Source of the DNA: Candidatus Fermentibacteraceae bacterium | Lineage (GTDB): Bacteria > Fermentibacterota > Fermentibacteria > Fermentibacterales > JCC-6 | Direction: 5' to 3' | NCBI GenBank assembly: GCA_016936235.1 | Contig: JAFGPK010000042.1 | Span: 32 to 64,031 of the forward strand | Length of the DNA: 64,000 bases | Part shown: piece after piece, positions 5,932-64,000 of the stretch | Layout: every line of letters starts with the position of its first letter | How positions within the stretch are numbered: position 1 is the stretch's first letter | Made by a program: the position numbers and the translations under genes | The notes under the pieces: generated by a model | What the model was told of the DNA's origin: nothing | Seen by the model: only the letters and a program-made list of their open reading frames with translations | Databases searched by the model: none

Positions 5932-6013
5932 TCGCTGTTCACGCCGAGGTTCCGCAACGGTGGTCCGGAACGGGATCCTTCGAAGATGATTACCCGGGAA
6001 GGGAGTTATTCTG

Positions 6014-6496
6014 ATGGCCTTATCTCTTCTGTCCCTCATTCTGATGGTGTCCTTTGACATGGGACCTACCGTAGGCGCCCTCGTGCCTGTCCAGGATGAA
6101 GGCGACCCATGGAGGACTAGCTTCGTCTTCGGAGTCAAGACCCGTTATGGAATGTCCTTTGCGGATGTGGAATCTGAGCTGCTGTTCACCGAGCTTGGAA
6201 TAGATCCCGATTCGTCCAGGGGCTTTGATTACTCCATGGTGCCGCTCACCCTGGGGCTCTCCAGGCACATTGCAGGGCTCAGAATGGGGCTGGGCGCCGC
6301 AGTGTACTCGATAAAGGCGGAGTTGAAGGTGGATGACGGCTTCAGTTCAGTATGGGAAGGGACATATCCGGGAATGTACATCTCCCTGGGCAGGGGCTTC
6401 CCGCTCCTGTCGGGAGTTGCGGACCTCTCCGCGAAGTTCAACATCGTTGATTTCAACGCGCTCTGGATAGGGTTGACCGGCTCGCTTCTCCTTTGA
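6014..6496 (+). CDS. Hypothetical small protein (possible membrane or beta-barrel-like protein)
   Basis: 160-codon ORF in a gap with no competing gene. It has alternating hydrophobic/polar stretches (SFVFGVKTRYGMSF, AAVYSIKAELKV, GMYISLGRGF). No recognisable family and no clear signal peptide. Confidence 0.4.
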   Translation: MALSLLSLILMVSFDMGPTVGALVPVQDEGDPWRTSFVFGVKTRYGMSFADVESELLFTELGIDPDSSRGFDYSMVPLTLGLSRHIAGLRMGLGAAVYSIKAELKVDDGFSSVWEGTYPGMYISLGRGFPLLSGVADLSAKFNIVDFNALWIGLTGSLLL

Positions 6497-6584
6497 CCGG
6501 TTTCGATCCCGGGTGTTCTCCCTGTGGCGGGAACCCAGGCAGTCTCCAGTCCGTTTCATCCCTGTGACCGATCAGAAGGACTGG

Positions 6585-8687
6585 ATGATGCGATCGATAG
6601 CAGTCGCTGCGGCATGCGCACTTGTGCTGGACGGGTGCGGGAACACGGGAGGTGGAGATATTTCACATGCAGGTACGGTTCTGAGCAACCGCCTTTCGGA
6701 GGAGTCAAGTCCCTACCTTCTCCAGCACTCAGGGAATCCGGTACACTGGCAGCCGTGGGACGATGCGGCGTTCCTGGCGGCAAGGAAACTGGACAGACCG
6801 ATCTTCCTCTCGATTGGTTACTCCTCCTGCCACTGGTGTCACGTGATGGAAGAGGAGAGCTTCCGTGATGCCGCCGTGGCTGATCGTATGAACAGGGCTT
6901 TCATCTGCATCAAGGTGGACCGCGAGGAACGTCCTGATCTGGACAATGTCTACATGAGGTACGCCATGGCAATGACCGGCAGCGGCGGATGGCCCCTTAA
7001 TCTGGTATTGACGCCTGACGGGAAACCCTTCTTCGCAGCAACTTATATACCCAGGGAATCCGGGTACGGCAGAAGGGGCATGCTGGAGCTTGTCCCCCTC
7101 ATCGAGGATGCATGGTCCAGCAGGAGGGAAGAGTTGATGGAAGCGGCGGAGGACATTTCGTCGGTCCTTCTCGGGCCAGTCACGGACCGGTCGGGAGAAG
7201 ATATCCGGGAAGATCCCTCCACGCTCTGCTTCCGGGAGCTGCAGGTCTCATACGATGAGACAAGGGGAGGCTTCGGTAGCGCCCCCAGGTTCCCTTCCCC
7301 GAACAGCATTCTCTTCCTGCTTCGATACTATCACTACTCCCGGGATGAAGCTTCTCTGGGAATGGCGGTCAGGACCCTTGCCGCTGTCAGGTACGGCGGG
7401 ATCTGGGACCAGCTGGGCGGAGGTCTGCACAGGTATGCCACCGATATGGAATGGCACGTACCGCATTTCGAGAAGATGCTGTACGATCAGGCCCTGGTGG
7501 CCATCGCCTGCCTCGAGGCTTTCCAGGCGACCGAAGAGCCGTTCTTCGCCTGCATGGCCGTTGAGATCCTTGATTTCGTCATTGAGGAGATGAGATCGCC
7601 CATGGGCGGATTCTGTTCGGCATTCGACGCGGACAGCCCCGGAGGGGAGGGAGCCTACTACACATGGAGCAGGGAAGAGCTGGAAGGTTCCCTTGACCCC
7701 GCGACCGCTGCTGAACTAGAGGACCTGTGGGGAATTGACGGTCTGGGAGACCTGACGGGGCTTCCCGGCGGTATCCCCGGGCGGAACGTACCGAGGCTGG
7801 AACTCCCGCCCCCGGGAATGGCTCTTCCCGATTCCCCTCCGGGCCCCGATGCCCGGGCGCGCGCAAGGCTGCTGGAAGTAAGGGAGCTGCGGCCGTCGCC
7901 CTTCCTTGACACCAAGGTGCTTGCTGACTGGAACGGCTTGACGATAGCGGCTCTTGCAAGGGCTTCATGGGTGCTCGGCAGACCCGATTTCCTGGATGCC
8001 GCAACGGGCGCCATGTCGTTCGTAAGGGACAGCATGACGCTGGAGGACGGGGCGGTCCTTCACAGCTGGATATCGGGCTCCGCATCAAGGATGGGTTTCC
8101 TTGACGATCAGGCGTTCATTATCTGGGCATGCATCGAAATGCACACCGCGACGCATGATCACGGGTATCTGGACATGGCCCTTGAGCTGCAGTCGTTACA
8201 GGATCGCCTGTATCTCGATCCAGCCACCGGAGCCTACCGGTTCTCTGAAGATGATGACGATGCCATCGACCTGCCCGAAACAATCGAATCCTTCGACGGG
8301 GCGGTCCCATCGGGGAATTCCGTCACCTTGTCGAACCTCTACCGTCTCTGGGGCCTCACCGGCGAATATTCAATGAGACGAAGGGCCGACTCCCTGGGAG
8401 AGGCTCTCCGCGGAAGGGCCGTTTCCGCTCCCTCGGCTCATGCGATGCTGGCGGCGGCCATGCTGAGCGGGCCGGAGCATGTCCATGTGACAATCACAGG
8501 CGATCCTTCGGACCCTGCCTTCGCGGAAATGATGAAGGCCGCCGGGGAAGCGTACAGCCCCGACCTGACCGTTTCCGTGGAGGAGAACGAGAATGAGGTA
8601 AGAGCCGTGGTCTGTGCCGCCGGGACCTGCAGCTCTCCGGCCGCCTCACCTTCACGACTCAGGGCACTCCTGGCGGGAGATGACTGA
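6585..8687 (+). CDS. Thioredoxin-domain protein of the YyaL/DUF255 (SPATA20-like) family
   Basis: SPYLLQHSGNPVHWQPWDDAAFLAARKLDRPIFLSIGYSSCHWCHVMEEESF is the hallmark N-terminus of this family. A long alpha-helical domain follows. The likely start is ATG 6585 (MMRSIAVAAACALVLDGCG, a signal/lipoprotein-like leader, with an AAGGA box upstream) rather than 6513. Confidence 0.85.
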   Translation: MMRSIAVAAACALVLDGCGNTGGGDISHAGTVLSNRLSEESSPYLLQHSGNPVHWQPWDDAAFLAARKLDRPIFLSIGYSSCHWCHVMEEESFRDAAVADRMNRAFICIKVDREERPDLDNVYMRYAMAMTGSGGWPLNLVLTPDGKPFFAATYIPRESGYGRRGMLELVPLIEDAWSSRREELMEAAEDISSVLLGPVTDRSGEDIREDPSTLCFRELQVSYDETRGGFGSAPRFPSPNSILFLLRYYHYSRDEASLGMAVRTLAAVRYGGIWDQLGGGLHRYATDMEWHVPHFEKMLYDQALVAIACLEAFQATEEPFFACMAVEILDFVIEEMRSPMGGFCSAFDADSPGGEGAYYTWSREELEGSLDPATAAELEDLWGIDGLGDLTGLPGGIPGRNVPRLELPPPGMALPDSPPGPDARARARLLEVRELRPSPFLDTKVLADWNGLTIAALARASWVLGRPDFLDAATGAMSFVRDSMTLEDGAVLHSWISGSASRMGFLDDQAFIIWACIEMHTATHDHGYLDMALELQSLQDRLYLDPATGAYRFSEDDDDAIDLPETIESFDGAVPSGNSVTLSNLYRLWGLTGEYSMRRRADSLGEALRGRAVSAPSAHAMLAAAMLSGPEHVHVTITGDPSDPAFAEMMKAAGEAYSPDLTVSVEENENEVRAVVCAAGTCSSPAASPSRLRALLAGDD

Positions 8688-51006: not shown

Positions 51007-52188
51007 ATGAATGGCCGGACGGGTATCCCGGATTTCCTGAGGGAAAACGAGATAAAAAGCGATGCGGAGCCGCAGCCCCTTACCGACAGGGCCCTGACGG
51101 AAGCCTGGGAGGAACTCGAGCCTGATCTTCGAAGGTTTTCCGGATCCGGTATTGTGACCATAGTGGTCAACGACGCCACCCGTCCTCCGTCCCGTCCGAT
51201 GCTCGAACCTCTTGAGAGCATGCTGGACTGCGCTGTCCGGATACTCTTCGCAACAGGGACCCACCGACCGGTGACTGAAGAGGAGAGGACAAGGCTCATT
51301 GGAAACTGCTTTCCGGATGCATCCTGGAAGAACAGCGACTGTGACCTGCCGGAAATGGTCTTCATCGGAAGGACTTCCAGGGGTACACCCGTAAGCCTTG
51401 ACCCCTGGATTCTCGATGGAGGACCCGTCATTGCGTTGAATTCGGTGGAGCCGCACTACTTCGCCGGCTTCACCGGTGGAAGGAAGTCGTTCCTGCCCGG
51501 AGTAGCCTCCAGGGAGACAATAGTGAGGAACCACTACCAAGCCTGTCTGTCCGGCTCCGAGCCATGCAGGCTGGAGGGCAATCCCGTGCACGAGGACATG
51601 GTCGAGGCCCTGGCTATGCTGGAGGCAAGGGTGGAGATAATACAGGGGAACGGTGTGATGCACCGCGGAAGGCTGGTCGGTTTTTTTGCCGGGACCTGTA
51701 CTGATTCCTTCGCCAGGGCTTCTGAGTCATCAGCCTCCCTGGCGCGCATACCGGTGCAGGAGAGATCGGAACTCGTTATCCTTCACCCGGGAGAGCCTCT
51801 GCACATAAATCTGTACCAGTCGGAGAAGGCCATCTACAACTGCAGCCATATCGTTGAGGACGGCGGGACACTTCTTCTCGTTACCCCCTGCCCTGAAGGT
51901 CTCGGGGCGGAGCATCTCCGGCAGGCTTTCATCTCGTCCATGAGTGAAGACTGGAAGATTCCCGACACTGAGAGTTACGCCCTCGGCGATCATGCGATCG
52001 TTCGCCTCAGGGAGATGAGGAAAAGACTTACCATAGCCCTTGCCAGCGATCTTCCGGATGACCTGGTAAGGGAGATGGGGATGGAGCCGGTGCATGATGT
52101 GCGGTCATGGGTAATTGCCCGTGACCACACCAGAGCCGTGTTCATCCCCTCCGCTGGATTCGTGGTCCCGTATCTGGAAGACTCCTGA
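51007..52188 (+). CDS. LarA-family (DUF2088) protein, nickel-pincer-dependent lactate-racemase-like
   Basis: 393 aa. VTIVVNDATRPP, FATGTHRP, NSVEPHYFAGFTGGRKSFLPGVAS and TIVRNH line up by eye with the LarA catalytic His, cofactor-tethering Lys and Ni-binding His regions. No larB/C/E genes are in the window. Confidence 0.7.
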   Translation: MNGRTGIPDFLRENEIKSDAEPQPLTDRALTEAWEELEPDLRRFSGSGIVTIVVNDATRPPSRPMLEPLESMLDCAVRILFATGTHRPVTEEERTRLIGNCFPDASWKNSDCDLPEMVFIGRTSRGTPVSLDPWILDGGPVIALNSVEPHYFAGFTGGRKSFLPGVASRETIVRNHYQACLSGSEPCRLEGNPVHEDMVEALAMLEARVEIIQGNGVMHRGRLVGFFAGTCTDSFARASESSASLARIPVQERSELVILHPGEPLHINLYQSEKAIYNCSHIVEDGGTLLLVTPCPEGLGAEHLRQAFISSMSEDWKIPDTESYALGDHAIVRLREMRKRLTIALASDLPDDLVREMGMEPVHDVRSWVIARDHTRAVFIPSAGFVVPYLEDS

Positions 52189-52189
52189 C

Positions 52190-53560
52190 ATGTGGAACAT
52201 AAGGACCAGGATCCTGACTCTATTCATGATGATAGTCCTTATATGGCTGTTCTTTTTCTATAGCTCCGACGTGGTCAGCAGACTAAGACAAGCCAGGACC
52301 AAGGCCAACGAGACAATCGCCTGGTTCTGGGCCGGATCACAGGTACCCCTCAGCAGCCTGGCCGACATAGGCATGACTTATATCTGCAGTGAATGCGGCA
52401 CCACGTACCCGACATACAGTTTCAATCCGGACACTTCCATCACGGGGTACTGCCAGACCTGCGGAAAGGTCACAGAATGGTACTTCATCTCATTCGAGGG
52501 ATTCAGGGATAGGGAGCAGCTTCTAATGACCATCAGAAAGCTGTTCAGGGACCTTGTTGAACGGCTGGACTATACGACGTTGCTTACCGATACTGAAATG
52601 AGACCCCAGGTAGTCAACGGAGCGGCGGTCACCGATTCCATCAGCGCCGACAGCCTCAGGGTCCTGCATGTCCTGGCAAGAAAGCTGGACCTGGAGAACG
52701 ACCCCCTCCCCATAACCGATTCCAGCGGAGAGACAGTCGGCTACCTTCACTACGGATCGGATGAGCTTGAACAGGAGTTGCTTCTGGTACCGTACATCGA
52801 GATGGGTATCATTTCGGTGATGGTGCTGCTCTTCCTCCTTGTCATCAGGAGCGAGATAAGGAAGGAAAAGGAGATGTCCTGGATCGGATTCGCCAAGGAA
52901 ACGGCCCATCAGCTGAGCACACCCCTCTCGTCCCTGATGGGCTGGATAGAGATATTGGGCGACAGAACGGAACCCTCTGCGGACGGGGAGCTCGAAGAGG
53001 CCCTTGAATGCATGGAGGATGATGTCGATAGACTGAAGCAGATAGCGAACCGCTACGGTCAGATGGGGAAGAAGCCCAGACTGGAAAAGGGGCTTGTTAA
53101 TCCCGTCATCCTTGATACTGTACACTATTTCTCGGGCAGACCCGGCCTGCTCTCCGACGGGATAGTCCTTGAAACCGATTTCCGCTCCAAGTATCCCGTG
53201 AACCTCAATCCTGTCCTTTTCGGCTGGGTGATCGAGAACCTCCTTAAGAATTCCATTTCGGCGATAAAGGAGGATTCGGAGGGCACCATCAGGATCACCA
53301 CCAGGGATATCCTTGAAGCCAACGGCAAGGTCGAGGTGGAGATAGCTGACAACGGGATTGGCATTCCATTTTCCCACCAGAAGAAAATCTTCAGGGCCGG
53401 ATTCACCACAAGACGAGGCGGATGGGGTCTCGGTCTGACCCTGAGCAAGCGGATAATAGAGAGGCATCACAAGGGTAGTCTGCGGCTGAAGGCAAGTTCG
53501 CCGGGCAAGGGGACGACCTTTGTCATCCTGTTCTCGGCGGCGCGGGGGGATGGGGTATGA
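52190..53560 (+). CDS. Membrane sensor histidine kinase (PorY-like partner of the downstream REC-PglZ regulator)
   Basis: The ATG at 52190 lies 1 nt after the larA-like stop. TM1 is ILTLFMMIVLIWLFFFY. The ~190-aa loop contains CSECGTTY...CQTCGKV. TM2 is IISVMVLLFLLVI. The H-box is ETAHQLSTPLSSL, and the G boxes are EIADNGIGIP and GGWGLGLTLS. There is an ATGA overlap with the next gene. Confidence 0.8.
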   Translation: MWNIRTRILTLFMMIVLIWLFFFYSSDVVSRLRQARTKANETIAWFWAGSQVPLSSLADIGMTYICSECGTTYPTYSFNPDTSITGYCQTCGKVTEWYFISFEGFRDREQLLMTIRKLFRDLVERLDYTTLLTDTEMRPQVVNGAAVTDSISADSLRVLHVLARKLDLENDPLPITDSSGETVGYLHYGSDELEQELLLVPYIEMGIISVMVLLFLLVIRSEIRKEKEMSWIGFAKETAHQLSTPLSSLMGWIEILGDRTEPSADGELEEALECMEDDVDRLKQIANRYGQMGKKPRLEKGLVNPVILDTVHYFSGRPGLLSDGIVLETDFRSKYPVNLNPVLFGWVIENLLKNSISAIKEDSEGTIRITTRDILEANGKVEVEIADNGIGIPFSHQKKIFRAGFTTRRGGWGLGLTLSKRIIERHHKGSLRLKASSPGKGTTFVILFSAARGDGV

Positions 53561-55113
53561 TAAGCATCCTGTGGGTTGATGACGAGATACATCATCTGCG
53601 AAGCCACATCAGGTTCCTGGAGAAGCGCGATTACCGTGTCCTCACAGCACCCAACGGGAAAATGGCCCTTGAAGTCCTCAGGGACAACCAGGTGGACATT
53701 GTCCTTATGGACCAGATGATGGTGGGCATGGACGGTCTCGAGACCGTATCCTCCATTCGAAGGAACTACCACGCTCTGCCCATAGTGATGATCACCCAGA
53801 GCGAAGAAGAGGAGCTGATGGACATGGCCATCGGCAGCGAGGTCGATGATTTCCTGACCAAACCGGTGAATCCCAGCCAGATACTCCTTGTCATCAAGAA
53901 GCTGCTCATGGGTGATCGATTGAAGACGCAGAAGGCGGCAAGGGAGATGGTGGACCAGACAACCCGCCTGATGGAGATGAGAAGCCACGAAATGAACTTC
54001 AGGGACTGGATCGACTTCTACGGCTCCTGGGTGGAGAAGGACGTCGCATCCGAAGGCGCCATCACCGATGAGATGAAGACCCTGGACAGGTACAGGTTCG
54101 GAGAGATGGAGCTTGACTTCTCCCGCTTCGTGGAAAGAAGCTACCCCCTCTGGGTGTCCGGGGAGGATCCTGACACACCACTGATGTCCCATAATTTCCT
54201 GGAGAGGGTCGTGGTACCCCAGGGTGACAGCTCCCCCGAGCTGGTACTGATGGTAATCGACTGCATGAGGTATGACCAGTGGCTGACCATGGCACCTCAG
54301 CTCGAGAAGTGGTTCCACATCGAGACGGATTTCATGCTCTCGATACTGCCCTCCGCCACTCCCTACAGCAGGAACTCCATTTTCTCAGGCCTTCTGCCCA
54401 GGGACATATGGAGATTCTACAGGAAGATGTGGGATGAGAACTACGGTGATCCGGGCCTGAACAAGCATGAGCACTTCTACCTCACTGAGGCGCTGAGACG
54501 ACTGGGCTTCGGCAGGAGCATCGAGCCTGACTATGTCAAAGTGAGTAACAGGAGAGAGGGTGAAATGCTCATACATTCCCTCTCAAGGCATCTTAAGAAC
54601 GGATTCATGGCTCTGATAATCAACTATATAGATCATCTGACCCATGGGAGGTCGGAACTTGACCTCATAAGGGATCTTGCGCCTGATGTCTCCAGCTTCA
54701 GGAAACTCGCGGAGACATGGTTCAAGTCCTCCTTCCTCAGGGACCTGTTCCATACCCTGGCTGCACGGGGCTCCACGGTGATCATCACCAGCGACCACGG
54801 CTCGGTGTTCACTTCCAGGGAGACCAGGATAAGGGGCAGGGGGGTTTCCGGGAGCATCAGGTTCCGGTTCGGCACCTCGCTTTCCGCTGATCCAAAGACC
54901 GTGATATCAACCGGTGATCCCGCCCGATGGGGACTTCCGGACGACAGACCTTCAAAGAGCTACCTTTTCGCAAGATCCGATTATTTCATGATGTTCCCCA
55001 GCGTACCGAGGGATGAGATGTACAAGTTCAGGAACACTTTCCAGCACGGCGGGGTTTCGCTGGAAGAGATGATCGTGCCCAGTATAGTCATGAGACCAAA
55101 GAGCGTGAAATGA
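53557..55113 (+). CDS. porX: PorX-type response regulator: CheY-like receiver fused to a PglZ (alkaline-phosphatase superfamily) domain
   Basis: 518 aa. The REC motifs are ILWVDDE, IVLMDQMMVGMDG, IVMITQS and FLTKPV. The PglZ motifs are LVLMVIDCMRYDQW, ILPSATPYSRNSIFSGLLP, INYIDHLTHG, VIITSDHGS and FQHGGVSLEEMIVP. REC plus PglZ is the diagnostic PorX architecture. Confidence 0.8.
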   Translation: MISILWVDDEIHHLRSHIRFLEKRDYRVLTAPNGKMALEVLRDNQVDIVLMDQMMVGMDGLETVSSIRRNYHALPIVMITQSEEEELMDMAIGSEVDDFLTKPVNPSQILLVIKKLLMGDRLKTQKAAREMVDQTTRLMEMRSHEMNFRDWIDFYGSWVEKDVASEGAITDEMKTLDRYRFGEMELDFSRFVERSYPLWVSGEDPDTPLMSHNFLERVVVPQGDSSPELVLMVIDCMRYDQWLTMAPQLEKWFHIETDFMLSILPSATPYSRNSIFSGLLPRDIWRFYRKMWDENYGDPGLNKHEHFYLTEALRRLGFGRSIEPDYVKVSNRREGEMLIHSLSRHLKNGFMALIINYIDHLTHGRSELDLIRDLAPDVSSFRKLAETWFKSSFLRDLFHTLAARGSTVIITSDHGSVFTSRETRIRGRGVSGSIRFRFGTSLSADPKTVISTGDPARWGLPDDRPSKSYLFARSDYFMMFPSVPRDEMYKFRNTFQHGGVSLEEMIVPSIVMRPKSVK

Positions 55114-55535: not shown

Positions 55536-56181
55536 GACCACTTCACCGACCGGCGGAATAGCCCTGACAAGGAACGGAGAGGTGCTGGCCGAGGAGTTCT
55601 TTCCCGTGATGGCGACCCATTCCGAGAATCTCCTTCCCGGAATTGCACGCATGCTGGAGCGCGGGCGCACCAGTGGAGAGGATATTGCCGGAATAGCCGT
55701 CTCGGCCGGCCCCGGCTCGTATACGGGGGTTCGGATAGGCATCTCCACCGCACAGGGTCTTGCAAAGGGGTGGAACACGGGGGTCGTGGCTGTTGGAACA
55801 TTGAGAGTCCTCGCGGTCTCGGTCGGGAGTCCACAGCCGGTGCTGGCCTGCATAAGGGCCAGAGAGGGTGAAGTATTCGCCGCGGTCTACAGCAGTGGCT
55901 CGCCTGAAGCGGCCGTGATCGTAGAACCGGCTGTCTATACTGCGGAAGCCCTCTTCCGCCGTGTATCCGAATTCGGCGGTGTTACGGCGGTAGGAAGCGG
56001 TCAGCGTGTAATATCACTCCCGCAGGGAGTATCAGGCACCGACGAGTCCATGGACCTGCCCAGGCCGTCCATCGCAGCCATCCTGGGATCGCTCCGGTTC
56101 GAGAAAGGCGGTTTCGACCCTTTCCCGGTGCCGCTATACCTTAGGGATTTCAACCAGAAAGCGAGTACATTTGTACCCTGA
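55510..56181 (+). CDS. tsaB: tRNA t6A37 biosynthesis protein TsaB (YeaZ)
   Basis: 223 aa. WLGIETTSPTGGIALTRNGEVLAE...HSENLLPGIARML...IAGIAVSAGPGSYTGVRIGISTAQGLA matches the family. It overlaps tsaE by 26 nt. Confidence 0.85.
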   Translation: MAGLWLGIETTSPTGGIALTRNGEVLAEEFFPVMATHSENLLPGIARMLERGRTSGEDIAGIAVSAGPGSYTGVRIGISTAQGLAKGWNTGVVAVGTLRVLAVSVGSPQPVLACIRAREGEVFAAVYSSGSPEAAVIVEPAVYTAEALFRRVSEFGGVTAVGSGQRVISLPQGVSGTDESMDLPRPSIAAILGSLRFEKGGFDPFPVPLYLRDFNQKASTFVP

Positions 56182-57403
56182 ACTGCGTCTGGCATCCCGG
56201 ACGGACATTCCCGCCATGCTGGAAATAGAGCAATTGTCCTTCTCCTGCCCCTGGGACTGGGAGACCTTGTCGAGCTGCATAGGCTCTCCCGCCTGCCGGA
56301 CCTGGACCGCGAGGATGAAGGGCGTCGTCAGAGGTTATGTAAGCGCATGCCTGGAGACGGAGGGCCTCCATATAGTCAATCTCGCCGTCCACCCATCATA
56401 CAGGAGGAAGGGACTGGCCTCGGCTCTGCTTGATACCGCCGAAGGCTGGGGGGAGCGTCTGGGTGCCGTCAGCGCACTGCTCGAGGTCAGGACAGGAGCT
56501 GTCGCCGCACGCGAGCTCTACGATCAGAGGGCCTACAGGGAGCTGGAGAGGCTGGAAGGCTATTACCCGGACGGGGAGGACGGACTGCTTCTTGTCAGGT
56601 CCCTTGTTCCTCGCGAAGATACAGCCGCCATGGCGTGGAGAATAATGGAAAGATGCGGGAAGGTTCCCGCAACAGGTGTGGTGCTGGGCTCGGGGCTCTC
56701 ATGGCTGGCCGAGGAGTCCGGTATCAGGTGCAGTCTGGATTACGGTGATGTGATGGAAGAATCATCGTCCCAGGTTCCGGGCCATCCCGGAAGACTTGTA
56801 TTCAGTGAATGTGGCAGATTCGTCTTCCTGCTGGGGAGGAGGCACCATTACCAGGGGTATTCCGATGACCAGATATCGGTCCTGCCCGGGATCCTGGGGG
56901 ATCTCGGTGTCAGCCGCTGGATACTGACATCATCCTCCGGAGCGGTGGATCCCTCACTCAAGCCCGGGGATGCCGTACTTTTCAGGGATCATGTCAATTT
57001 CACTGGTTGTGTACCCTCCTCCGGTCCGTGGAGGATCCGGCCGTCGGTGTATTCCCGCCTGCTTGCGGCGGCAGCCAGGGATGCCGCCCTGGAAAGCGGC
57101 ACGGTCGTTCGGGAAGGACTTTTCGCCTGTGTATCAGGACCCGCCTACGAGACCTCGGCGGAGATTGAGTTCCTGAATGGCAAAGGGTTCTCGACGGTTT
57201 CCATGTCAACTGTTCCCGAAGCGCTTCTCCTATCGTCAATGGGATTCGAGGTCTCCGCAGTGTCCCTCATCACCAACGAGGCGGCACCGGGGGCGGTCCT
57301 GACCCATGAGGAGGTCCTGGCCTCGCAGGGCAGGGTCCATGCGATGCAGGGGAAGTTCATGTCCGCTTTTCTAAGAAAGGCTGCATCATTTGGACTACAG
57401 TGA
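56171..57403 (+). CDS. Fusion of RimI-type N-acetyltransferase with a trimeric-type purine nucleoside phosphorylase (PunA/PNP family)
   Basis: 410 aa in a single frame. The GNAT region is LEIEQLSFSCPWDWETL...IVNLAVHPSYRRKGLASALL...LEVRTGAVAARELY. The PNP region is TGVVLGSGLS...VPGHPGRLVF...LLGRRHHYQGY...ILTSSSGAV...GLFACVSGPAYETSAEIEFL...GFSTVSMSTVPEA...SLITNEAA. Confidence 0.75.
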   Translation: MYPELRLASRTDIPAMLEIEQLSFSCPWDWETLSSCIGSPACRTWTARMKGVVRGYVSACLETEGLHIVNLAVHPSYRRKGLASALLDTAEGWGERLGAVSALLEVRTGAVAARELYDQRAYRELERLEGYYPDGEDGLLLVRSLVPREDTAAMAWRIMERCGKVPATGVVLGSGLSWLAEESGIRCSLDYGDVMEESSSQVPGHPGRLVFSECGRFVFLLGRRHHYQGYSDDQISVLPGILGDLGVSRWILTSSSGAVDPSLKPGDAVLFRDHVNFTGCVPSSGPWRIRPSVYSRLLAAAARDAALESGTVVREGLFACVSGPAYETSAEIEFLNGKGFSTVSMSTVPEALLLSSMGFEVSAVSLITNEAAPGAVLTHEEVLASQGRVHAMQGKFMSAFLRKAASFGLQ

Positions 57404-58667: not shown

Positions 58668-58714
58668 GTATCATCCCTGACAAAGGTATTCCAATGCAAT
58701 GGAGGTTTGAACCA

Positions 58715-58957
58715 ATGGCGGACAAGAAGAAGGCTGTTATCCCCAGGGAAGAGGATGGCGACAGCTCCGGGGGCGCGGCTCCCTTCACATTAACGAACTA
58801 CATTCTTTTCGCGGTGGGGCTTCTTGACATAGTGCTGGGCTGGTTCCTGCTCAGGGGAGGCCGCATAACCATAGCCCCGATCATGCTCATTCTCGGCTAT
58901 TGCGTCATCATCCCCATGGCCATCATCCTGCGGAGGAAACAGCCGGATAATGGCTAG
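58715..58957 (+). CDS. Small two-TM membrane protein (DUF3098-like)
   Basis: The ATG at 58715 lies 9 nt after GGAGG (58701-58705). MADKKKAVIPREEDG... is followed by two hydrophobic helices (YILFAVGLLDIVLGWFLL and IAPIMLILGYCVIIPMAIIL). The family label is from memory only. Confidence 0.55.
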   Translation: MADKKKAVIPREEDGDSSGGAAPFTLTNYILFAVGLLDIVLGWFLLRGGRITIAPIMLILGYCVIIPMAIILRRKQPDNG

Positions 58958-59708
58958 GATGTACGCCCCGGCCCCCTGCTTCGCCCTTTTCCTGCTGATC
59001 GCCTGCGGCGGGGGGGACGAACGCATTTCCAGGCCTGATCCTCTCCCTCTGACAGCTGCCGATACGGCATTCGTCCAGGTCAGCGGAGGTACGTTCATCA
59101 CCCCGGACGGCGATACTGTAGATATCCCCGGTTTCCGCCTCGGCAGGTATGAGGTCACCAACAGGCTCTACTACAACATCGCCTGCCAGGCCGGGATAGA
59201 ACTTCCCCCGGATCCGGAGTTCCCGGGAATGGACGAGTACCTCTTCAGCTGTCCTGATCATCCTGTGGTCAATGTCAGCATGGTGGAGGCCGCCATGGTG
59301 GCCTCGCATCTCGGCGGCAGGCTCCCTACGAGGACGGAGTGGCAGTATGCGGCCTCACTTGGACTTGCAGGGGATATCAGGGGCCAGTACCCCTGGGGGA
59401 GGCTCAATCCCCCCGATGCGGAGTATCCGGCCAACTACCTTGCCGGCGACGAATGGGAGACCAGGGGAATGGACGGCTACCTCTGGACGGCTCCGGTGGA
59501 TTCGTTTCCGCTGACCGACGCGGGTTTCGCATGTCAGGCGGGGAACGTGGCTGAATGGACACTGGCTCCGCTTGACTCGGTGGTCCACGTCTGCGGAGGA
59601 GCATGGCTCTCCCCTGCTGAGGGTATAACCGTCGATGCCTCGAGACTGCTCGCATCCGGGGACAGAGCCCGCCATATAGGCTTCCGCATTCTCATGCCGA
59701 TTGACTGA
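58950..59708 (+). CDS. Formylglycine-generating-enzyme (SUMF1/FGE-sulfatase fold) family lipoprotein
   Basis: 252 aa. The leader is CFALFLLIACGGG. The FGE-fold motifs are YEVTNRLYY, PVVNVSMVEAAMVASHLGGRLPTRTEWQYAA, YPWG, GNVAEWT, CGGAW and HIGFRI. Confidence 0.75.
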   Translation: MARMYAPAPCFALFLLIACGGGDERISRPDPLPLTAADTAFVQVSGGTFITPDGDTVDIPGFRLGRYEVTNRLYYNIACQAGIELPPDPEFPGMDEYLFSCPDHPVVNVSMVEAAMVASHLGGRLPTRTEWQYAASLGLAGDIRGQYPWGRLNPPDAEYPANYLAGDEWETRGMDGYLWTAPVDSFPLTDAGFACQAGNVAEWTLAPLDSVVHVCGGAWLSPAEGITVDASRLLASGDRARHIGFRILMPID

Positions 59709-59779
59709 ACACTTTCCTCTGACAGCCTGCCACTGCGCCGGAGGACCTTGCCTGATCTCCATACCGTGAGGGAGGGTCA

Positions 59780-62700
59780 ATGAAGACTTGCTTCACCTTT
59801 GTAACGTTAATCCTGCTGCCCCTGCTGCCTGCCGGTACGGCGCGCTGCGGGACCCTGTACACCCATCACGGTCCTGTAGCTGTTCCGCCGGGAGGCTACG
59901 CCTTTAGTGTCTGCTCGGAGGGGGGAGTAGCGGGGGACTTCAAGGTAGTGCCTGCTCTTGCTCCAGGCCCCTGGCCGTTTCTGAGGGCTGTTCTTCCTCC
60001 GGCTGCGGATTCGGCAGTAAATATCTGCGGGGAATGGCTCAGGAATGACCTTAGCGTGAGATTTTCAGACCTGCTGTACAGGGACCTGCATCTTGACAGT
60101 CCCGCTGTGCCCGGCTTCGCAGATATTAACGGCGACGGCGAGGATGATCTGGTGGTCCTGACCCCTGACGGCTCGCTGCAGGGAATTTTCACTTTCCCCG
60201 GCCTGGAGGAGGTCGATCCTGGAAGCTGGACGGGTGAATTCGAAGCATTCCGGGACGTGACCGGGGACGGTCTCCCGGATTCCGCTTCGATCACTGACGA
60301 TGGGGTTCTGATCATCCACTCCGAAGACCGACCGGTGGTGAGTTCCACCGGATTCGCCGTTCCGGCCGTTGCGGGGGTCGCACTGTTCGACATGGAGGGT
60401 GACGGTCTTGCTGACCTCGTCCTGGGTACGGGGTCGGGCGGCGTGATGGTCTACAGGAATTCCGGCACCTTCAGTATGCCCTGTTTCGTTCCTTTCAGGT
60501 CCTGCACCCGCCGCGCATTCCCAATGAATCCCGGTGCGTTCAGTTCCCCCGCGGTCTTCCGGGGCGATGATTCGACTCTGGTCCTGGCGGTGGGGACGCT
60601 GATGAACGGTCTTCATCTCTACAGAGCAACACTCTCCGGGGGACTTTCCCGGATTGACTGGTCAGACGCACACGGAGTAGCAGGCGCTGAAGGCTTTCAG
60701 AACATATCGCCCACCGTGTTGGAACTTGTCGATGGGCCGATACTGGTATGCGGATCAAGGGAGGGAGTCCTGTACGGGTACGTCCCCGGCAGCGATTCCC
60801 TGGTGCCGCTTCAGCTGCCCCCCGTACCGGGAAGTTACCCTGATCTGGCAGTCACCATGGTGGATGACGACGAATTCCCGGACCTGGTGGCCGGGACGAT
60901 GGAGGGTCAGGTCTACCGCCTCGAAGGATGGGAGGGCTGGTTCCGCGGCGGATGGACGGAACTCGAGGGATTTCCTCAGTTACCCTCCGGCGCTCCCTCG
61001 CCCTGGGGTGAAGGTCTGGTGTTCGGTACCGATGGAGGGGGATTGCTTTTCTATACCCGGAACGGCAGCGGGTCCTGGGTGGATTCCACTGAAGCTTCCC
61101 CGTTCAGGGACATAGATGTGGGGGATTTCTCGGTACCGGAATTCTTCGACTTCGACGGGGACGGAGTTCCGGAGCTGATCGCAGGCAGTTCAAGGGGCGA
61201 TCTCACGCTGTTCGAGCTCTGTCCCGACGCTTCCGGCGCAGGGCCTCTCTACCTGGAGAGGTATTCCTGGGAGTTCCAGCCCGGCGGCGCTGTGCCGGAT
61301 ATCGATGCCTATTACTCGAGGTACTTCCAGCCGTACACAGTTCTTCGTGTGCCTACCGGGAGCGACATGGTGGAAGCATTTGCGGAGGAGATCCTGAGGG
61401 CCCCGCAGGAGAATCGCGATGAGATTGCCTACTGCGTGGCCCATACGCCCACGGAAGTCCTCGTCTCCATGTACGCGAACGGCGACACGGACCTTCTCGG
61501 GCTGAACGCGAGATCCATGTATCAGATGGCGGACAAGCTGGAGTACGTCACTATCGAGGATTCAGGCGGCACCAGCTGGTGCCGGTTGAGGACACTTGAC
61601 GGCTGGTTCGACGTGGACCCCGAGGATTACTACCGTTTCGTCGTCCATCCAAGGATTCTCTTCGAAGTGCCGGCAAGGGTCGACGCGGATTACTGGAGCG
61701 CTCCCAGGGACACCGCCGTTCTCTCTCTGGAAGAATGGCTGAACCATGAGCCGGACGACCTGTACGGCTCCTCCGATGACCATGTGTTCTGGAGGGTCTT
61801 CCTCCCGGTTGACAGCACGATCGGCGGTCCGCTTCTGGAGAGCATGATGCAGGCGTCCAGCTACGAAGAGGCGGTGGTAAGGATCTGTAACTTCCAGTCC
61901 CATTCCCAGCCGGAAGGGATGATGAGTTTCGGGTACTCCACCAACGATCTCCAGCCCATGGTCATTTACAGAAAGGCCTACGGCTCCTGCGGCGAGCAGT
62001 CGATACTCCAGACCGCTCTTTGCAGGACCTTCCTTATCCCGGCCTATGTCGTTGGTTGCCGGGGAGAGGACCACCAGTGGGCGCAGTACCTGCATCCGGC
62101 CAGCGGAAGGTGGGGCCACTGGGACATCAATTACGGTCTGGCGGGCATCGGGGACATCTGGGTATCCGGTGAGGGGATCGACCATCGAGGCAAGACCATC
62201 TCCACAATAACCGCCTTCGGACCGGACAACTCCGTCTGGCCCGTGACCACCGTTACAATCGCATCCCCCGGCTCGGGCTACATGCCCGGGGATTCGGGGT
62301 ACACCCGTACCGCCAGGGTGGAGGTGACGGTTCTCGATCCCTCCGGCATGCCCGTGGAAGGGGCGATGGTTCTGGCGAGGTCCCACTGGGAGAACGCCAA
62401 TTCAGTATCGCAGTTCGAATACACCGATATTACCGGGACCTGCGAGTTCATGCTGGGATGGGAGCCCGGAGGCGGATACACAATGGATGTGGTATCACCC
62501 TTCGGATCGACGGGAAGCCGGAACATCTCCTTCCGGGAGGATACGGACTACCGTATCCGCTATACCGTCCCGTGCCTTATCCCCCGGCCCCAGTCCATTG
62601 AGATCGGACAGGCGGCTTATTCGGTTGATTCTGCGGTCACGGAGCGAATCTATCCGGTGAGCTACTTCTCCGGATCCCTCTATTCCATTGATGATGGGAG

Positions 62701-64000
62701 TGAGGACTTCACCTCTACCCGGGGTTTCGCCGGCCGGAGACCGGTTCCGGGCTCAGGCCTGGTTCTCTACATGGACCGTGAGAACTTCGGGAGATACCGC
62801 AGAGGTCTCCATTGCAGGGCCCTTGGGCATCAGTTCGATCCCGCGCCCGGGGACACATGCTACGCGGTGCTTGACAACCGGAACAGCATGTTCACCTGGC
62901 GGGACTTCAACATTGACCGGCTGATGCCGCCTGCTGTTTCAGAACAGTCTTCTCCCAGGGACAGAGAATGGTTCGAAGGTCCCTTCGACTCCAGACTGCC
63001 CCTGTCGCCCTTCTGCCCTTCCGCTCCCGAGATCGGGGATGATACCGCCGGGACCGGATGGATAGTGACGATGCATGATCTGCAGATGAGGCAGGACGAC
63101 CCCGGTGATCCTCTGTCATCGGGACAGGTCATCGGACCCTTCAGGATCCCTCCAGGTTCGCGCAGCCTTAGCATCGAGACAGAGGGAGATGCCCCCGGAA
63201 TGGACGTTGACCTCTACCTGTTCAGGGATTCAGACGGTGACCTGACGGTGGACGGCATGGATGAAATGATCCTGTCCTCCACTACCCCGTCTTCCAGCGA
63301 GAGAATAGTCATGACCGGTGCGGACACCTCCGCCGTCTACTGGATTTACATACAGGGCTGGCAGGTTCCCGAGGATTCGGGAAGGGTGGACCTGGGGCTG
63401 TCCTTCAGCCCCGAGATGGTCCGGATACACTCACTACATCCCACAGGACCTGTCAGGGACCTTCCCGATCTCTTCTCTTTCCGACTGACGGCGGATTCCC
63501 TGAACACCGGTGACGTGCTGCTGGCAGCCGGCGGTGACACGCTGGTTCCGCGGAGGTACGGGGACAGTTGGGAAGTAGAATCCTCAAGCTTGACCGGTGC
63601 CTTCATGACCGGAGAGGTGGAAGTCCTGACTGATGGGGTGGGAACCTATGGCTCCTTCAGCTGGAGTGTCATGCTGGACAGCGTGCCTCCTGAGGCTGTC
63701 TCCAGCGGGATATTGGTCCATCCTGAGATCATGGAGGCCGGGATAGAAGTCAGATGCTTTGATGCCCTCTCGGGGATGCGGAGCGTGAGGGTATCCACCG
63801 ATTCCCTTCACGAATCGCAGTGCCGACTGGCCGATTCCGTCTGGAGCTGCACCATGGACCTTTCGCTCATGCAGGAGGGGGCGGTTGACGTGACGATTCT
63901 CCTTGAGGACTCGGCGGGCAACAGATCCCGGGAGCGTCTCACCGTCGAAGTGCCGGAGAGGCCCGGCGTACTCTTCCGTCACATCTACCCCGAGGGCGTC
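59780..64000 (+). CDS. Very large secreted FG-GAP/VCBS-repeat plus transglutaminase-core protein (5' partial; continues beyond the window)
   Basis: This ORF is not in the supplied track. The ATG at 59780 lies 3 nt after GGAGGG (59771-59776). I read 1407 consecutive sense codons to position 64000 with no stop. The signal peptide is MKTCFTFVTLILLPLLPAGTA. The FG-GAP-like loops are DINGDGEDDLVVL, DMEGDGLADLVLG, DDDEFPDLVAG and DFDGDGVPELIAG. The transglutaminase Cys-His-Asp core is YGSCGEQSILQTALCRTFLIPAYVVGCRGEDHQWAQYLHP..GRWGHWD. Beta-rich (Ig or pre-peptidase-like) regions follow. Confidence 0.8.
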   Translation, partial: MKTCFTFVTLILLPLLPAGTARCGTLYTHHGPVAVPPGGYAFSVCSEGGVAGDFKVVPALAPGPWPFLRAVLPPAADSAVNICGEWLRNDLSVRFSDLLYRDLHLDSPAVPGFADINGDGEDDLVVLTPDGSLQGIFTFPGLEEVDPGSWTGEFEAFRDVTGDGLPDSASITDDGVLIIHSEDRPVVSSTGFAVPAVAGVALFDMEGDGLADLVLGTGSGGVMVYRNSGTFSMPCFVPFRSCTRRAFPMNPGAFSSPAVFRGDDSTLVLAVGTLMNGLHLYRATLSGGLSRIDWSDAHGVAGAEGFQNISPTVLELVDGPILVCGSREGVLYGYVPGSDSLVPLQLPPVPGSYPDLAVTMVDDDEFPDLVAGTMEGQVYRLEGWEGWFRGGWTELEGFPQLPSGAPSPWGEGLVFGTDGGGLLFYTRNGSGSWVDSTEASPFRDIDVGDFSVPEFFDFDGDGVPELIAGSSRGDLTLFELCPDASGAGPLYLERYSWEFQPGGAVPDIDAYYSRYFQPYTVLRVPTGSDMVEAFAEEILRAPQENRDEIAYCVAHTPTEVLVSMYANGDTDLLGLNARSMYQMADKLEYVTIEDSGGTSWCRLRTLDGWFDVDPEDYYRFVVHPRILFEVPARVDADYWSAPRDTAVLSLEEWLNHEPDDLYGSSDDHVFWRVFLPVDSTIGGPLLESMMQASSYEEAVVRICNFQSHSQPEGMMSFGYSTNDLQPMVIYRKAYGSCGEQSILQTALCRTFLIPAYVVGCRGEDHQWAQYLHPASGRWGHWDINYGLAGIGDIWVSGEGIDHRGKTISTITAFGPDNSVWPVTTVTIASPGSGYMPGDSGYTRTARVEVTVLDPSGMPVEGAMVLARSHWENANSVSQFEYTDITGTCEFMLGWEPGGGYTMDVVSPFGSTGSRNISFREDTDYRIRYTVPCLIPRPQSIEIGQAAYSVDSAVTERIYPVSYFSGSLYSIDDGSEDFTSTRGFAGRRPVPGSGLVLYMDRENFGRYRRGLHCRALGHQFDPAPGDTCYAVLDNRNSMFTWRDFNIDRLMPPAVSEQSSPRDREWFEGPFDSRLPLSPFCPSAPEIGDDTAGTGWIVTMHDLQMRQDDPGDPLSSGQVIGPFRIPPGSRSLSIETEGDAPGMDVDLYLFRDSDGDLTVDGMDEMILSSTTPSSSERIVMTGADTSAVYWIYIQGWQVPEDSGRVDLGLSFSPEMVRIHSLHPTGPVRDLPDLFSFRLTADSLNTGDVLLAAGGDTLVPRRYGDSWEVESSSLTGAFMTGEVEVLTDGVGTYGSFSWSVMLDSVPPEAVSSGILVHPEIMEAGIEVRCFDALSGMRSVRVSTDSLHESQCRLADSVWSCTMDLSLMQEGAVDVTILLEDSAGNRSRERLTVEVPERPGVLFRHIYPEGV

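What the first reader, a model, noticed from the sequence alone, without database searches (positions are those of the whole stretch)
59780..64000. ORF of more than 1400 codons missing from the ORF track: secreted FG-GAP plus transglutaminase-core giant protein running off the window
The supplied track lists only antisense or off-frame ORFs for the last 4.2 kb. I read frame 2 from ATG 59780, which has a GGAGGG box 3 nt upstream, and found 1407 sense codons up to position 64000 with no stop. The ORF was presumably dropped because it has no stop codon in the window.

It encodes:
- a signal peptide;
- four or more FG-GAP/VCBS-type Ca-loop repeats;
- a transglutaminase-like Cys-His-Asp core (GSCGEQS...DHQWAQ...HWD);
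- long beta-rich C-terminal regions.

It follows an FGE/SUMF1-fold lipoprotein and lies downstream of the PorXY-like pair. It may therefore be a large surface or T9SS-exported protease or cross-linking enzyme. This domain combination has no characterised representative that I know of.
Basis: seen in the sequence. Interest (0 to 1): 0.6.

Follow-up and report, generated by a model that had tools for sequence, protein, structure and literature searches.

The report
Exported propeller-plus-PNGase-like thiol enzyme
The open reading frame is real and encodes a 1498-residue exported protein of an uncultured sediment bacterium, in which a calcium-loop propeller is fused to an intact cysteine-histidine-aspartate enzyme core most like eukaryotic peptide N-glycanase; the family is uncharacterised, but the gene is neither giant, nor a type IX secretion cargo, nor tied to its neighbours.

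Summary
Observation confirmed. Frame 2 from ATG 59780 has 1407 sense codons to 64000 and runs off contig C25. The rest lies on contig C89, and a second assembly bridges the gap, so the full length is 1498 aa, not a giant.

Architecture: Sec signal peptide (no lipobox), FG-GAP propeller, an unannotated ~200-aa helical lobe, a transglutaminase-fold core, then a CarboxypepD_reg-like sandwich, a subtilase-type jelly roll and Ig-like domains.

- **Core:** C737 and H765 are invariant in 42 homologues; D782 is kept in at least 90%. The core is the most conserved part (75% identity against 30-53% in most other segments and 66% in the adjacent sandwich).
- **Closest solved relatives:** PNGases (Png1/NGLY1). 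The triad aligns with C191/H218/D235 at 25-27% identity, but the zinc motif and cytosolic setting are absent, so it is not a Png1 member.
- **Secretion:** no T9SS C-terminal domain, although the genome has 59 such hits, one on a 729-aa paralogue of the same enzyme module.
- **Neighbours:** the FGE lipoprotein and PorXY-like pair are conserved neighbours only in some genera.

Best reading: an exported thiol amidohydrolase. The substrate is unknown.

The parts
59771..59776 (+). Shine-Dalgarno-like GGAGGG, 3 nt before the start codon
   Evidence: Read directly from the sequence. No sigma-70-like promoter or terminator was found in 59500-59900.
59780..64000 (+). ORF, codons 1-1407 of a 1498-codon gene. 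It runs off the window and contig C25, and its end lies on contig C89.
59780..59842 (+). Sec-type signal peptide (aa 1-21, MKTCFTFVTLILLPLLPAGTA). It has no lipobox: Arg precedes Cys23.
   Evidence: Sequence. Hydrophobic N-termini are seen across homologues. The cleavage site is a heuristic call (inference).
59861..60103 (+). Conserved N-terminal region (aa 28-108; VPPGGYA...APGP...EWLRxDL) without a family match
   Evidence: Nearly invariant P36, P37, G38, G39, Y40. No Pfam hit.
60104..61231 (+). FG-GAP beta-propeller with Ca-loop motifs (aa 109-484)
   Evidence: FG-GAP_3 E 8e-12 and FG-GAP 3e-7. ITFG2 is the best PDB sequence match for this part. DxDxDG-type loops at aa 115, 159 and 457; DMEGDGLAD at about aa 204 read from the translation.
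61232..61849 (+). Unannotated, mostly helical N-lobe that always accompanies the core (aa 485-690; motifs RDEIAYC, YYRFVVHPRILFEVP, FWR)
   Evidence: From about aa 525, block-mean pLDDT is mostly 85-98; aa 485-525 are poorly modelled. No Pfam hit. Foldseek alignments cover only about 105-160 columns. Invariant residues across the wider family. The lobe co-occurs with the core in representative hits.
61850..62293 (+). Transglutaminase-fold catalytic core (aa 691-838). Cys737 is codon 61988-61990, His765 is 62072-62074 and Asp782 is 62123-62125.
   Evidence: Transglut_core scores 20.8 bits in hmmscan and 24.7 bits in the genome search. C737 and H765 are invariant and D782 is kept in at least 90%. 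Foldseek hits are 3isr, PNGases, TG2, FXIII, Rad4 and TgpA. The phmmer alignment to yeast and mouse PNGase lines up the triad. In the model, the Cys sits at the N-terminus of helix 253-266, the His at the start of strand 281-288 and the Asp just after strand 293-297.
62294..62575 (+). CarboxypepD_reg/Big_1-like beta-sandwich (aa 839-932)
   Evidence: Weak Pfam hits in this protein. E 6.5e-6 in homologue P0054. 66% mean identity.
62576..63064 (+). Middle region of unknown fold plus a variable linker (aa 933-1095; YPVSYFSGSLYSI, MDxENF, VLDNRNSxFTW). It is also present in the short paralogue.
   Evidence: Low and mixed pLDDT. Conserved motifs. Paralogue sequence.
63065..63424 (+). Beta-jelly-roll domain of the type found at the C-terminus of secreted subtilases (PPC-like) (aa 1096-1215)
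   Evidence: pLDDT about 90. Foldseek hits to the Tk-SP C-domain 3afg (E 5.8e-5), KP-43 and CBM4-type modules. Weak PPC hit in P0054.
63425..64000 (+). First two Ig-like domains and the start of a third (aa 1216-1407). The third ends at aa 1498, outside the window.
   Evidence: The profile matches SiiE BIg domains in 2yn3 (E 2e-3). Big_13/Big_7 hits in homologues. C-terminal sequence.

Best explanation
The ORF encodes a 1498-aa protein of a Candidatus Fermentibacteria-type bacterium. The lineage is taken from the names that sources give its homologues.

Shown:
- The protein is exported by a Sec signal peptide and is not a lipoprotein.
- Its domain order is N-terminal region, FG-GAP propeller with Ca-binding loops, about 200-aa helical lobe, transglutaminase-fold core, beta-sandwich, unknown middle domain, jelly roll, three Ig-like domains.
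- The Cys737-His765-Asp782 triad is intact and is the best-conserved part of the protein.
- Among solved structures, the core is most like peptide:N-glycanases.
- The lobe, core, sandwich and middle domain form a module. The same genome also carries this module in a 729-aa form that has a T9SS C-terminal domain.

Inferred mechanism:
- Cys737, at the N-terminus of a helix and activated by His765 and Asp782, attacks an amide carbonyl of a protein or glycoprotein substrate outside the cytoplasm. This forms a thioester.
- Water then resolves the thioester, so the enzyme acts as a protease, isopeptidase or Asn/Gln-side-chain amidase.
- The propeller recruits the substrate or a partner in a Ca-dependent way.
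- The C-terminal sandwiches act as a stalk or stabiliser.

The gene works on its own. It is not a recognisable T9SS cargo, and it has no obligate link to the FGE lipoprotein or the PorXY-like pair upstream.
For: - **ORF and full length:**
- **Family size and origin:** about 60 homologues of about 1460-1530 aa, named Aegiribacteria, Sabulitectum or Fermentibacteria by their sources.
- **Triad and conservation:** C737 and H765 are invariant and D782 is kept in at least 90%. The core shows 75% mean identity, against 30-53% in most other segments and 66% in the adjacent sandwich.
- **Pfam:** Transglut_core is above the cut-off in the more distant relatives P0032, P0054, P0056 and P0060, and this protein scores 24.7 bits in the genome search.
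- **Structure:** the AF2 model of aa 485-838 has pLDDT 82 and pTM 0.83, with the canonical placement of Cys at a helix N-terminus and His and Asp on or just after neighbouring strands.
- **Fold search:** Foldseek returns only transglutaminase-fold proteins. PNGases have the highest identity at 25-27%.
- **Sequence search of PDB:** phmmer gives PNGases as its top three matches. The remaining four, weaker matches (E 0.59-0.97) are unrelated proteins. The triad spacing is C-28-H-17-D here against C-27-H-17-D in yeast Png1 (C191/H218/D235, PMC3498931).
- **Wider family:** C737, E739, H765, W767 and W778 are invariant, together with N-lobe residues.
- **Extracytoplasmic setting:** members carry Por_Secre_tail, FlgD_ig and Big domains.
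- **Transcription:** metatranscriptome contigs at >=99% identity cover pieces of the ORF.
Against: - No biochemical data exist for any member.
- This protein's own Pfam score in hmmscan (20.8 bits) is under the 23-bit cut-off.
- Sequence cannot separate hydrolysis from acyl transfer.
- The final location (periplasm, surface or medium) is unknown: there is no lipobox, no T9SS C-terminal domain and no barrel.
- I had no model coordinates, so triad distances were not measured.
- The metatranscriptome contigs could include DNA carry-over.
Confidence: 0.6

Rival explanations
1. It is a protein cross-linking transglutaminase. The thioester would be resolved by a lysine or another amine, stitching together envelope, S-layer or matrix proteins of the cell.
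For: It has the same fold and triad as TG2, TG3 and FXIII. The Ca-binding modules recall Ca-dependent animal transglutaminases. The protein is exported and sits in a housekeeping gene block in several genera.
Against: Identity to true transglutaminases is only 11-16%, against 25-27% to PNGases. The motif after the Cys is GE, as in PNGase, not W as in the animal enzymes; that comparison is from memory and was not tested here. The gene is absent from half of the phylum's genomes, including 0 of 8 in one genus of the same family, which argues against a core envelope role.
Confidence: 0.15
2. It is a true peptide:N-glycanase. It would release Asn-linked glycans from extracellular glycoproteins, such as archaeal or eukaryotic detritus or the cell's own surface proteins.
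For: PNGases are the top three sequence matches in the PDB (E 0.025-0.086) and the most identical structural matches. The shared motifs are GxCGE, EDHxW and RWxHxD. The residues equivalent to W220 and W231 of yeast Png1 (W767, W778) are invariant; their role in chitobiose binding is from memory. Jelly-roll hits include CBM4-type modules.
Against: There is no CxxC zinc motif upstream of the core (sequence). The positions equivalent to R210 and E222 are Tyr and Gln. The protein is exported rather than cytosolic. The E-values are marginal. An earlier follow-up on another bacterial 'Png1-like' enzyme found no true relationship (e1-5192332, not tested here).
Confidence: 0.12
3. It is a T9SS-exported surface protease or cross-linker that is functionally tied to the FGE-fold lipoprotein and the PorXY-like regulators upstream.
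For: The organism has a large T9SS cargo set of 59 C-terminal-domain hits. Shorter relatives and a paralogue in this genome carry the C-terminal domain. The block REC-PglZ...FGE-this gene is syntenic in L002, L005 and L009. No terminator lies between the FGE gene and this ORF, and one RNA contig spans the junction.
Against: No type A or type B C-terminal domain is found in this protein's tail or in full-length homologues, even at E<=10. The FGE gene is in 66 of 70 genomes, against 35 of 70 for this gene, and the two are unlinked in another genus. P0023, P0060 and P0072 have other neighbours. The genes in between are tsaE, tsaB, rimI and folC.
Confidence: 0.08
4. It is a non-enzymatic adhesin or scaffold in which the transglutaminase fold serves only as a binding module, as in Rad4/XPC.
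For: It has a propeller and Ig-like domains typical of adhesins. Rad4 is among the fold hits.
Against: C737 and H765 are invariant and D782 nearly so, and the core is the most conserved segment. Inactive relatives typically lose these residues (general knowledge).
Confidence: 0.05

Closest known systems
Peptide:N-glycanase Png1/NGLY1 (yeast 1x3w/3esw, mouse 2f4m)
   Same: Transglutaminase-fold core. The triad aligns residue for residue, with the motifs GxCGE / EDHxW / RWxHxD. These are the top three PDB sequence matches and have the highest structural-hit identity, 25-27%.
   Different: No zinc-binding CxxC pair and no Rad23/PUB-binding parts. The protein is exported rather than cytosolic. Two recalled sugar-contact positions are not kept. 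It carries a new 200-aa N-lobe, a propeller and sandwich domains.
Cytophaga hutchinsonii putative cysteine protease 3isr (structural genomics) and other bacterial transglutaminase-like proteins (TgpA 6g49, CPR-C4 7ob6)
   Same: 3isr is the best Foldseek E-value (3.9e-4). These are bacterial, extracytoplasmic proteins with a Cys-His-Asp core.
   Different: Only 12-18% identity over 110-160 columns. None has the N-lobe, the propeller or this domain order. The function of 3isr is itself unproven.
Animal transglutaminases (TG2, TG3, factor XIII)
   Same: Same fold and triad, and Ca-dependent multidomain enzymes with beta-sandwich domains.
   Different: 11-16% identity, different active-site motifs and a different domain order. 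No evidence here for acyl transfer.
Short T9SS-sorted members of the same module (P0142, P0153; paralogue on contig C76 of this genome)
   Same: N-lobe plus core plus sandwich plus middle domain. 27% identity to the paralogue (E 3e-8) and the same motifs.
   Different: About 730-760 aa, with no propeller, and ending in a Por_Secre_tail C-terminal domain. They are also uncharacterised.

Membership tests
Transglutaminase-like superfamily (Pfam PF01841 Transglut_core; papain-like Cys-His-Asp fold) | Profile match at or above the curated cut-off | tested here: inconclusive
   This protein scores 20.8 bits in hmmscan (cut-off 23) and 24.7 bits in the six-frame genome search. The closest homologues P0002 (21.9) and P0007 (16.1) are also below the cut-off; the more distant P0032, P0054, P0056 and P0060 score 27 bits.
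Transglutaminase-like superfamily (Pfam PF01841 Transglut_core; papain-like Cys-His-Asp fold) | Cys-His-Asp triad present and conserved | tested here: met
   C737 and H765 are invariant and D782 is kept in >=90% of 42 homologues. Cys and His are also invariant in the wider family.
Transglutaminase-like superfamily (Pfam PF01841 Transglut_core; papain-like Cys-His-Asp fold) | Fold: Cys at a helix N-terminus, His and Asp on or just after adjacent strands, and structural similarity to members | tested here: met
   Model pLDDT 82. Helix 253-266 starts at the Cys, strand 281-288 starts at the His, and the Asp follows strand 293-297. The listed Foldseek hits with probability of about 0.9 or more are all of this fold. 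Triad distances were not measured.
Peptide:N-glycanase (Png1/NGLY1) | Catalytic core alignable with C191/H218/D235 | tested here: met
   phmmer alignment to 1x3w, 3esw and 2f4m. Triad numbering from PMC3498931.
Peptide:N-glycanase (Png1/NGLY1) | Zinc-binding pair of CxxC motifs N-terminal to the core (recalled from the Png1 structures) | tested here: not met
   No CxxC in aa 485-736 of the translation. The only conserved Cys residues nearby are single ones.
Peptide:N-glycanase (Png1/NGLY1) | Chitobiose-contacting residues (recalled: R210, W220, E222, W231) | tested here: inconclusive
   W767 and W778 are kept. R210 corresponds to Y756 and E222 to Q769. The residue list is from memory and was not verified in a paper here.
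Peptide:N-glycanase (Png1/NGLY1) | Cytosolic enzyme with Rad23/PUB-type partners | tested here: not met
   N-terminal signal peptide and extracytoplasmic domain types.
T9SS cargo | C-terminal sorting domain (type A PF18962/TIGR04183 or type B PF13585/TIGR04131) | tested here: not met
   No hit in full-length homologues or in this protein's last 108 aa at E<=10. Positive control: 59 hits in the same genome, including the C76 paralogue.
FG-GAP/VCBS propeller proteins | Repeated FG-GAP units with Ca-binding DxDxDG loops | tested here: met
   FG-GAP_3 E 8e-12 with 4 stretches, and FG-GAP 3e-7. Loops at aa 115, 159 and 457, plus DMEGDGLAD at about aa 204 read from the translation. ITFG2 match. The blade number was not modelled.
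Bacterial lipoproteins | Lipobox [LVI][ASTVI][GAS]C at the end of the signal peptide | tested here: not met
   The sequence reads ...PAGTARCG, with Arg at -1. Most homologues lack a Cys there.

The most novel reading that the evidence does not exclude
The lobe-plus-core module defines a prokaryotic family of extracytoplasmic Png1-type amidases. It has 356 representative clusters at E<=1e-3, found in FCB-group bacteria (source labels Fermentibacteria and candidate division CSSED10-310) and in Thermoplasmata archaea. This would be the first transglutaminase-fold N-glycanases outside eukaryotes. The new helical lobe would stand in for the zinc domain in forming the glycopeptide cleft, and the FG-GAP propeller would capture glycoprotein substrates.
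Probability: 0.12. Interest if true: 0.75.

Novelty: new variant of a known kind. Interest (0 to 1): 0.35.

Why it matters
If the enzyme is active as predicted, it gives a handle on an uncharacterised module of about 300-600 aa, found in several uncultured bacterial and archaeal lineages. Public databases label its members only 'hypothetical', 'VCBS repeat' or 'transglutaminase domain' proteins. Its closest solved relatives are PNGases, which are thought of as eukaryotic cytosolic enzymes. A prokaryotic exported cousin would bear on the origin of Png1/Rad4 and could supply new deglycosylating or isopeptide-cleaving reagents. If it is an ordinary secreted thiol protease, it is one more accessory-domain variant, of interest mainly for annotating Fermentibacteria. 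For the scan itself, the case shows that ORFs open at contig ends are dropped from the track.

Tried and rejected
- **Giant protein:** rejected. Homologues are about 1460-1530 aa, and P0003 plus contig C89 give 1498 aa.
- **T9SS C-terminal domain:** searched with Pfam and NCBIfam on full-length homologues and on the isolated tail at E<=10. Nothing was found.
- **Functional coupling with the FGE lipoprotein and PorXY pair:** phyletic patterns differ (66/70 against 35/70) and other genera show other contexts.
- **A conserved partner gene:** a Pfam-less protein of about 590-600 aa follows the gene in L002, L005, L009 and on C89, but not in L008, L004 or L007.
- **PDB profile search with the whole-protein alignment:** it gave only weak propeller, Ig and PNGase hits.
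- **Literature:** no paper holds Fermentibacteria together with transglutaminase, or FG-GAP together with transglutaminase-like.
- **Model of aa 955-1220:** the first half (aa 955-1090) was too uncertain to assign a fold.
- **Promoter and terminator scan of the upstream gap:** nothing found.
- **Export route:** one secretin gene exists in the genome, but I did not determine whether it belongs to a type II system or a pilus.

Full report
**Observation**

Translating window 59780-64000 (+) gives 1407 residues with no stop. With open ends allowed, the ORF list shows 59780..64000 as '3open', so the ORF was missing from the track only because it has no stop in the window. ATG 59780 is the first start codon after the upstream stop. 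GGAGGG lies at 59771-59776, 3 nt before it.

The window is C25:32-64031 of a 64090-bp contig in a 2.68-Mb, 117-contig, 94%-complete genome. The frame stays open to the contig end, giving 1426 aa.

The C-terminal 45 aa and the stop codon lie at the end of contig C89, on the reverse strand. They are followed there by tRNA-Val, a 596-aa ORF, tRNA-Met, tilS, hpt, ftsH, folE and folP. Apart from the two tRNAs, which the gene tables do not list, this is the order seen downstream of the orthologue in an Aegiribacteria genome.

P0003 is the same protein called on another assembly (aa 315-1498, 100% identical) and spans the gap. The full length is therefore 1498 aa, ending ...WDFQIRTMISTK. The protein is large but not giant: 91 residues lie outside the window.

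**Family and distribution**

About 60 homologues were found, nearly all 1460-1530 aa. The named ones come from Candidatus Aegiribacteria, Sabulitectum or Fermentibacteria, and the closest is 81% identical.

In the 70 genomes of the phylum that are held, the gene occurs in 35, all in one family:
- most species of the window's own genus;
- about half of a second genus;
- none of 8 in a third genus;
- none of 10 in the other families.

**Architecture**

- **aa 1-21:** a hydrophobic signal sequence. Arg precedes Cys23 and most homologues have no Cys there, so this is not a lipoprotein.
- **aa 28-108:** a conserved region with no family match.
- **aa 109-484:** FG-GAP and FG-GAP_3 repeats (E 3e-7 and 8e-12), with DxDxDG-type loops at aa 115, 159 and 457 by pattern search and DMEGDGLAD at about aa 204 read directly from the translation. 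ITFG2 is the best PDB sequence match for this part.
- **aa 485-838:** modelled with 43 sequences at pLDDT 82 and pTM 0.83. It consists of a mostly helical lobe of about 200 aa with no Pfam hit, then the transglutaminase-fold core.
- **aa 839-932:** a CarboxypepD_reg/Big_1-like sandwich.
- **aa 933-1095:** poorly modelled.
- **aa 1096-1215:** a confident jelly roll resembling the C-domain of the subtilases Tk-SP (3afg, E 5.8e-5) and KP-43, and CBM4-type modules.
- **The rest:** three Ig-like domains. The profile matches SiiE BIg domains, and homologues hit Big_13 and Big_7.

**The catalytic core**

- This protein scores 20.8 bits against Pfam Transglut_core in hmmscan, just under the 23-bit cut-off, and 24.7 bits in the genome search. 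The more distant relatives P0032, P0054, P0056 and P0060 score 27 bits.
- In 42 aligned homologues, C737 and H765 are invariant and D782 is kept in at least 90%.
- The core is the most conserved segment at 75% mean identity. Most other segments show 30-53%, and the adjacent sandwich 66%.
- In the model, the Cys opens helix 253-266, the His opens strand 281-288 and the Asp follows strand 293-297, which is the canonical arrangement for this fold.
- Foldseek against the PDB returns only transglutaminase-fold proteins. The best E-value is the Cytophaga putative cysteine protease 3isr. The highest identities, 25-27% over about 105 columns, are to mouse and yeast PNGase. TG2, TG3, FXIII, Rad4, CPR-C4 and TgpA follow at 9-18%.
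- A phmmer search of the PDB with aa 681-838 gives PNGases as its top three matches (E 0.025-0.086). The four remaining, weaker matches (E 0.59-0.97) are unrelated proteins. The alignment places C737, H765 and D782 on the yeast triad with nearly identical spacing. Yeast C191/H218/D235 is taken from PMC3498931.
- The shared motifs are GxCGE, EDHxW and RWxHxD.
- The Png1 zinc motif (paired CxxC) is absent, and two recalled sugar-contact positions are not kept.

The core therefore resembles PNGase, but the protein is not a member of the Png1 family.

**The module beyond this lineage**

A search of 1.84 billion representatives with aa 485-838 found 356 proteins at E<=1e-3 and 120 at E<=1e-10. Most matches cover both the lobe and the core.

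The relatives sampled include:
- propeller-bearing proteins of 1100-1750 aa from other uncultured bacteria, one named candidate division CSSED10-310;
- Thermoplasmata archaeal 'transglutaminase domain' proteins;
- proteins of about 750 aa that end in a T9SS C-terminal domain.

Across 16 such proteins, C737, E739, H765, W767 and W778 and a set of lobe residues (D547, E548, N576, Y617, Y618, P624, E629, P631, F670, W671, R672) are invariant.

The window's own genome carries a 729-aa paralogue on contig C76. It has the same lobe, core, sandwich and middle domain (27% identity, E 3e-8) and a clear Por_Secre_tail domain.

**Secretion and neighbours**

Neither full-length homologues nor this protein's last 108 aa match any T9SS sorting domain, even at E<=10. 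The same genome gives 59 Por_Secre_tail hits, so the absence is not a sensitivity problem. The route beyond the inner membrane is unknown. One secretin gene exists.

The upstream FGE-sulfatase-fold gene encodes a lipoprotein (lipobox LIAC) and weakly resembles PorK/GldK. However, it is present in 66 of 70 genomes of the phylum whether or not this gene is present, and in another genus the two lie on different contigs.

The block larA-like / kinase / REC-PglZ / tsaE / tsaB / rimI-PNP / folC / small ORF / FGE / this gene is syntenic in L002, L005 and L009. The P0023 homologue (source label Candidatus Sabulitectum) and the distant homologues P0060 and P0072 sit among unrelated genes. The adjacency is therefore lineage-specific gene order, not a conserved functional unit.

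No terminator separates the FGE gene from this ORF. Metatranscriptome contigs at >=99% identity cover several pieces of the ORF, one of them across the junction. This suggests transcription in situ, with the usual caveat about DNA carry-over.

**Interpretation**

The best-supported reading is an exported, catalytically competent thiol enzyme that acts on amide bonds of protein or glycoprotein substrates. It is most likely hydrolytic: a protease, an isopeptidase or an Asn/Gln side-chain amidase. The propeller would be the Ca-dependent recognition module, and the sandwiches a stalk.

The rivals, ranked lower, are a cross-linking transglutaminase, a true N-glycanase, a cryptic T9SS cargo and an inactive adhesin. 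I found no literature on this family. Earlier notes of this scan mention an orthologue without a C-terminal sorting domain and a related 'PNGase-like triad on a stalk'. They agree with this reading but are not independent evidence.

**Verdict**

This is a new variant within the transglutaminase-fold enzymes, of moderate interest.

Noticed in passing
G000 contig C76, about 4819-7000 (- strand); outside the window: A 729-aa paralogue of the same lobe-plus-core module (GNCGETQ / EDHVWC / WxGWYVD) ends in a Por_Secre_tail T9SS domain. One genome therefore holds a short T9SS-sorted form and a long propeller-bearing form without the domain.
   Followed up: partly
window 56171-57403 (+): A GNAT (RimI-like) domain is fused in frame to a PNP_UDP_1 phosphorylase domain, between tsaB and folC. 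The same 374-410-aa fusion is called in L002, L005 and L009.
   Followed up: partly
window 52115-55113 (+): A histidine kinase and a REC-PglZ (PorX-type) regulator are encoded as an overlapping pair after a LarA-like gene. The REC-PglZ regulator, preceded by a similarly sized gene that carries kinase domains in L002 and L009 (no Pfam hit in L005), is conserved in the same order in all three.
   Followed up: partly
G000 contig C89 (reverse strand), about 405-2195 from the joined end; orthologues at L002:15006-16796, L005:12714-14519 and L009:12816-14588: A conserved protein of about 590-600 aa follows the gene in several genera. The L002 orthologue gave no Pfam match at E<=0.05 in my scan, and the precomputed tables show none for the other two. 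On C89 it is flanked by tRNA-Val and tRNA-Met.
   Followed up: partly
window 58694-58957 (+) and 58950-59708 (+): A small DUF3098-like membrane ORF overlaps the start of the 252-aa FGE-sulfatase-fold lipoprotein, which weakly resembles PorK/GldK (E 1e-12, far below the cut-off). The lipoprotein is present in 66 of 70 genomes of the phylum.
   Followed up: partly
G000, whole genome: There are 59 Por_Secre_tail matches (44 over the cut-off) in a 2.7-Mb genome, a very large T9SS cargo set for its size. Many of them lie at contig ends.
   Followed up: no
window 64000 / end of contig C25, and end of contig C89: Contigs C25 and C89 (reversed) are neighbours, separated by about 80 bp that lies inside this gene. 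Another assembly (P0003, on a 26.7-kb contig) spans the break.
   Followed up: yes
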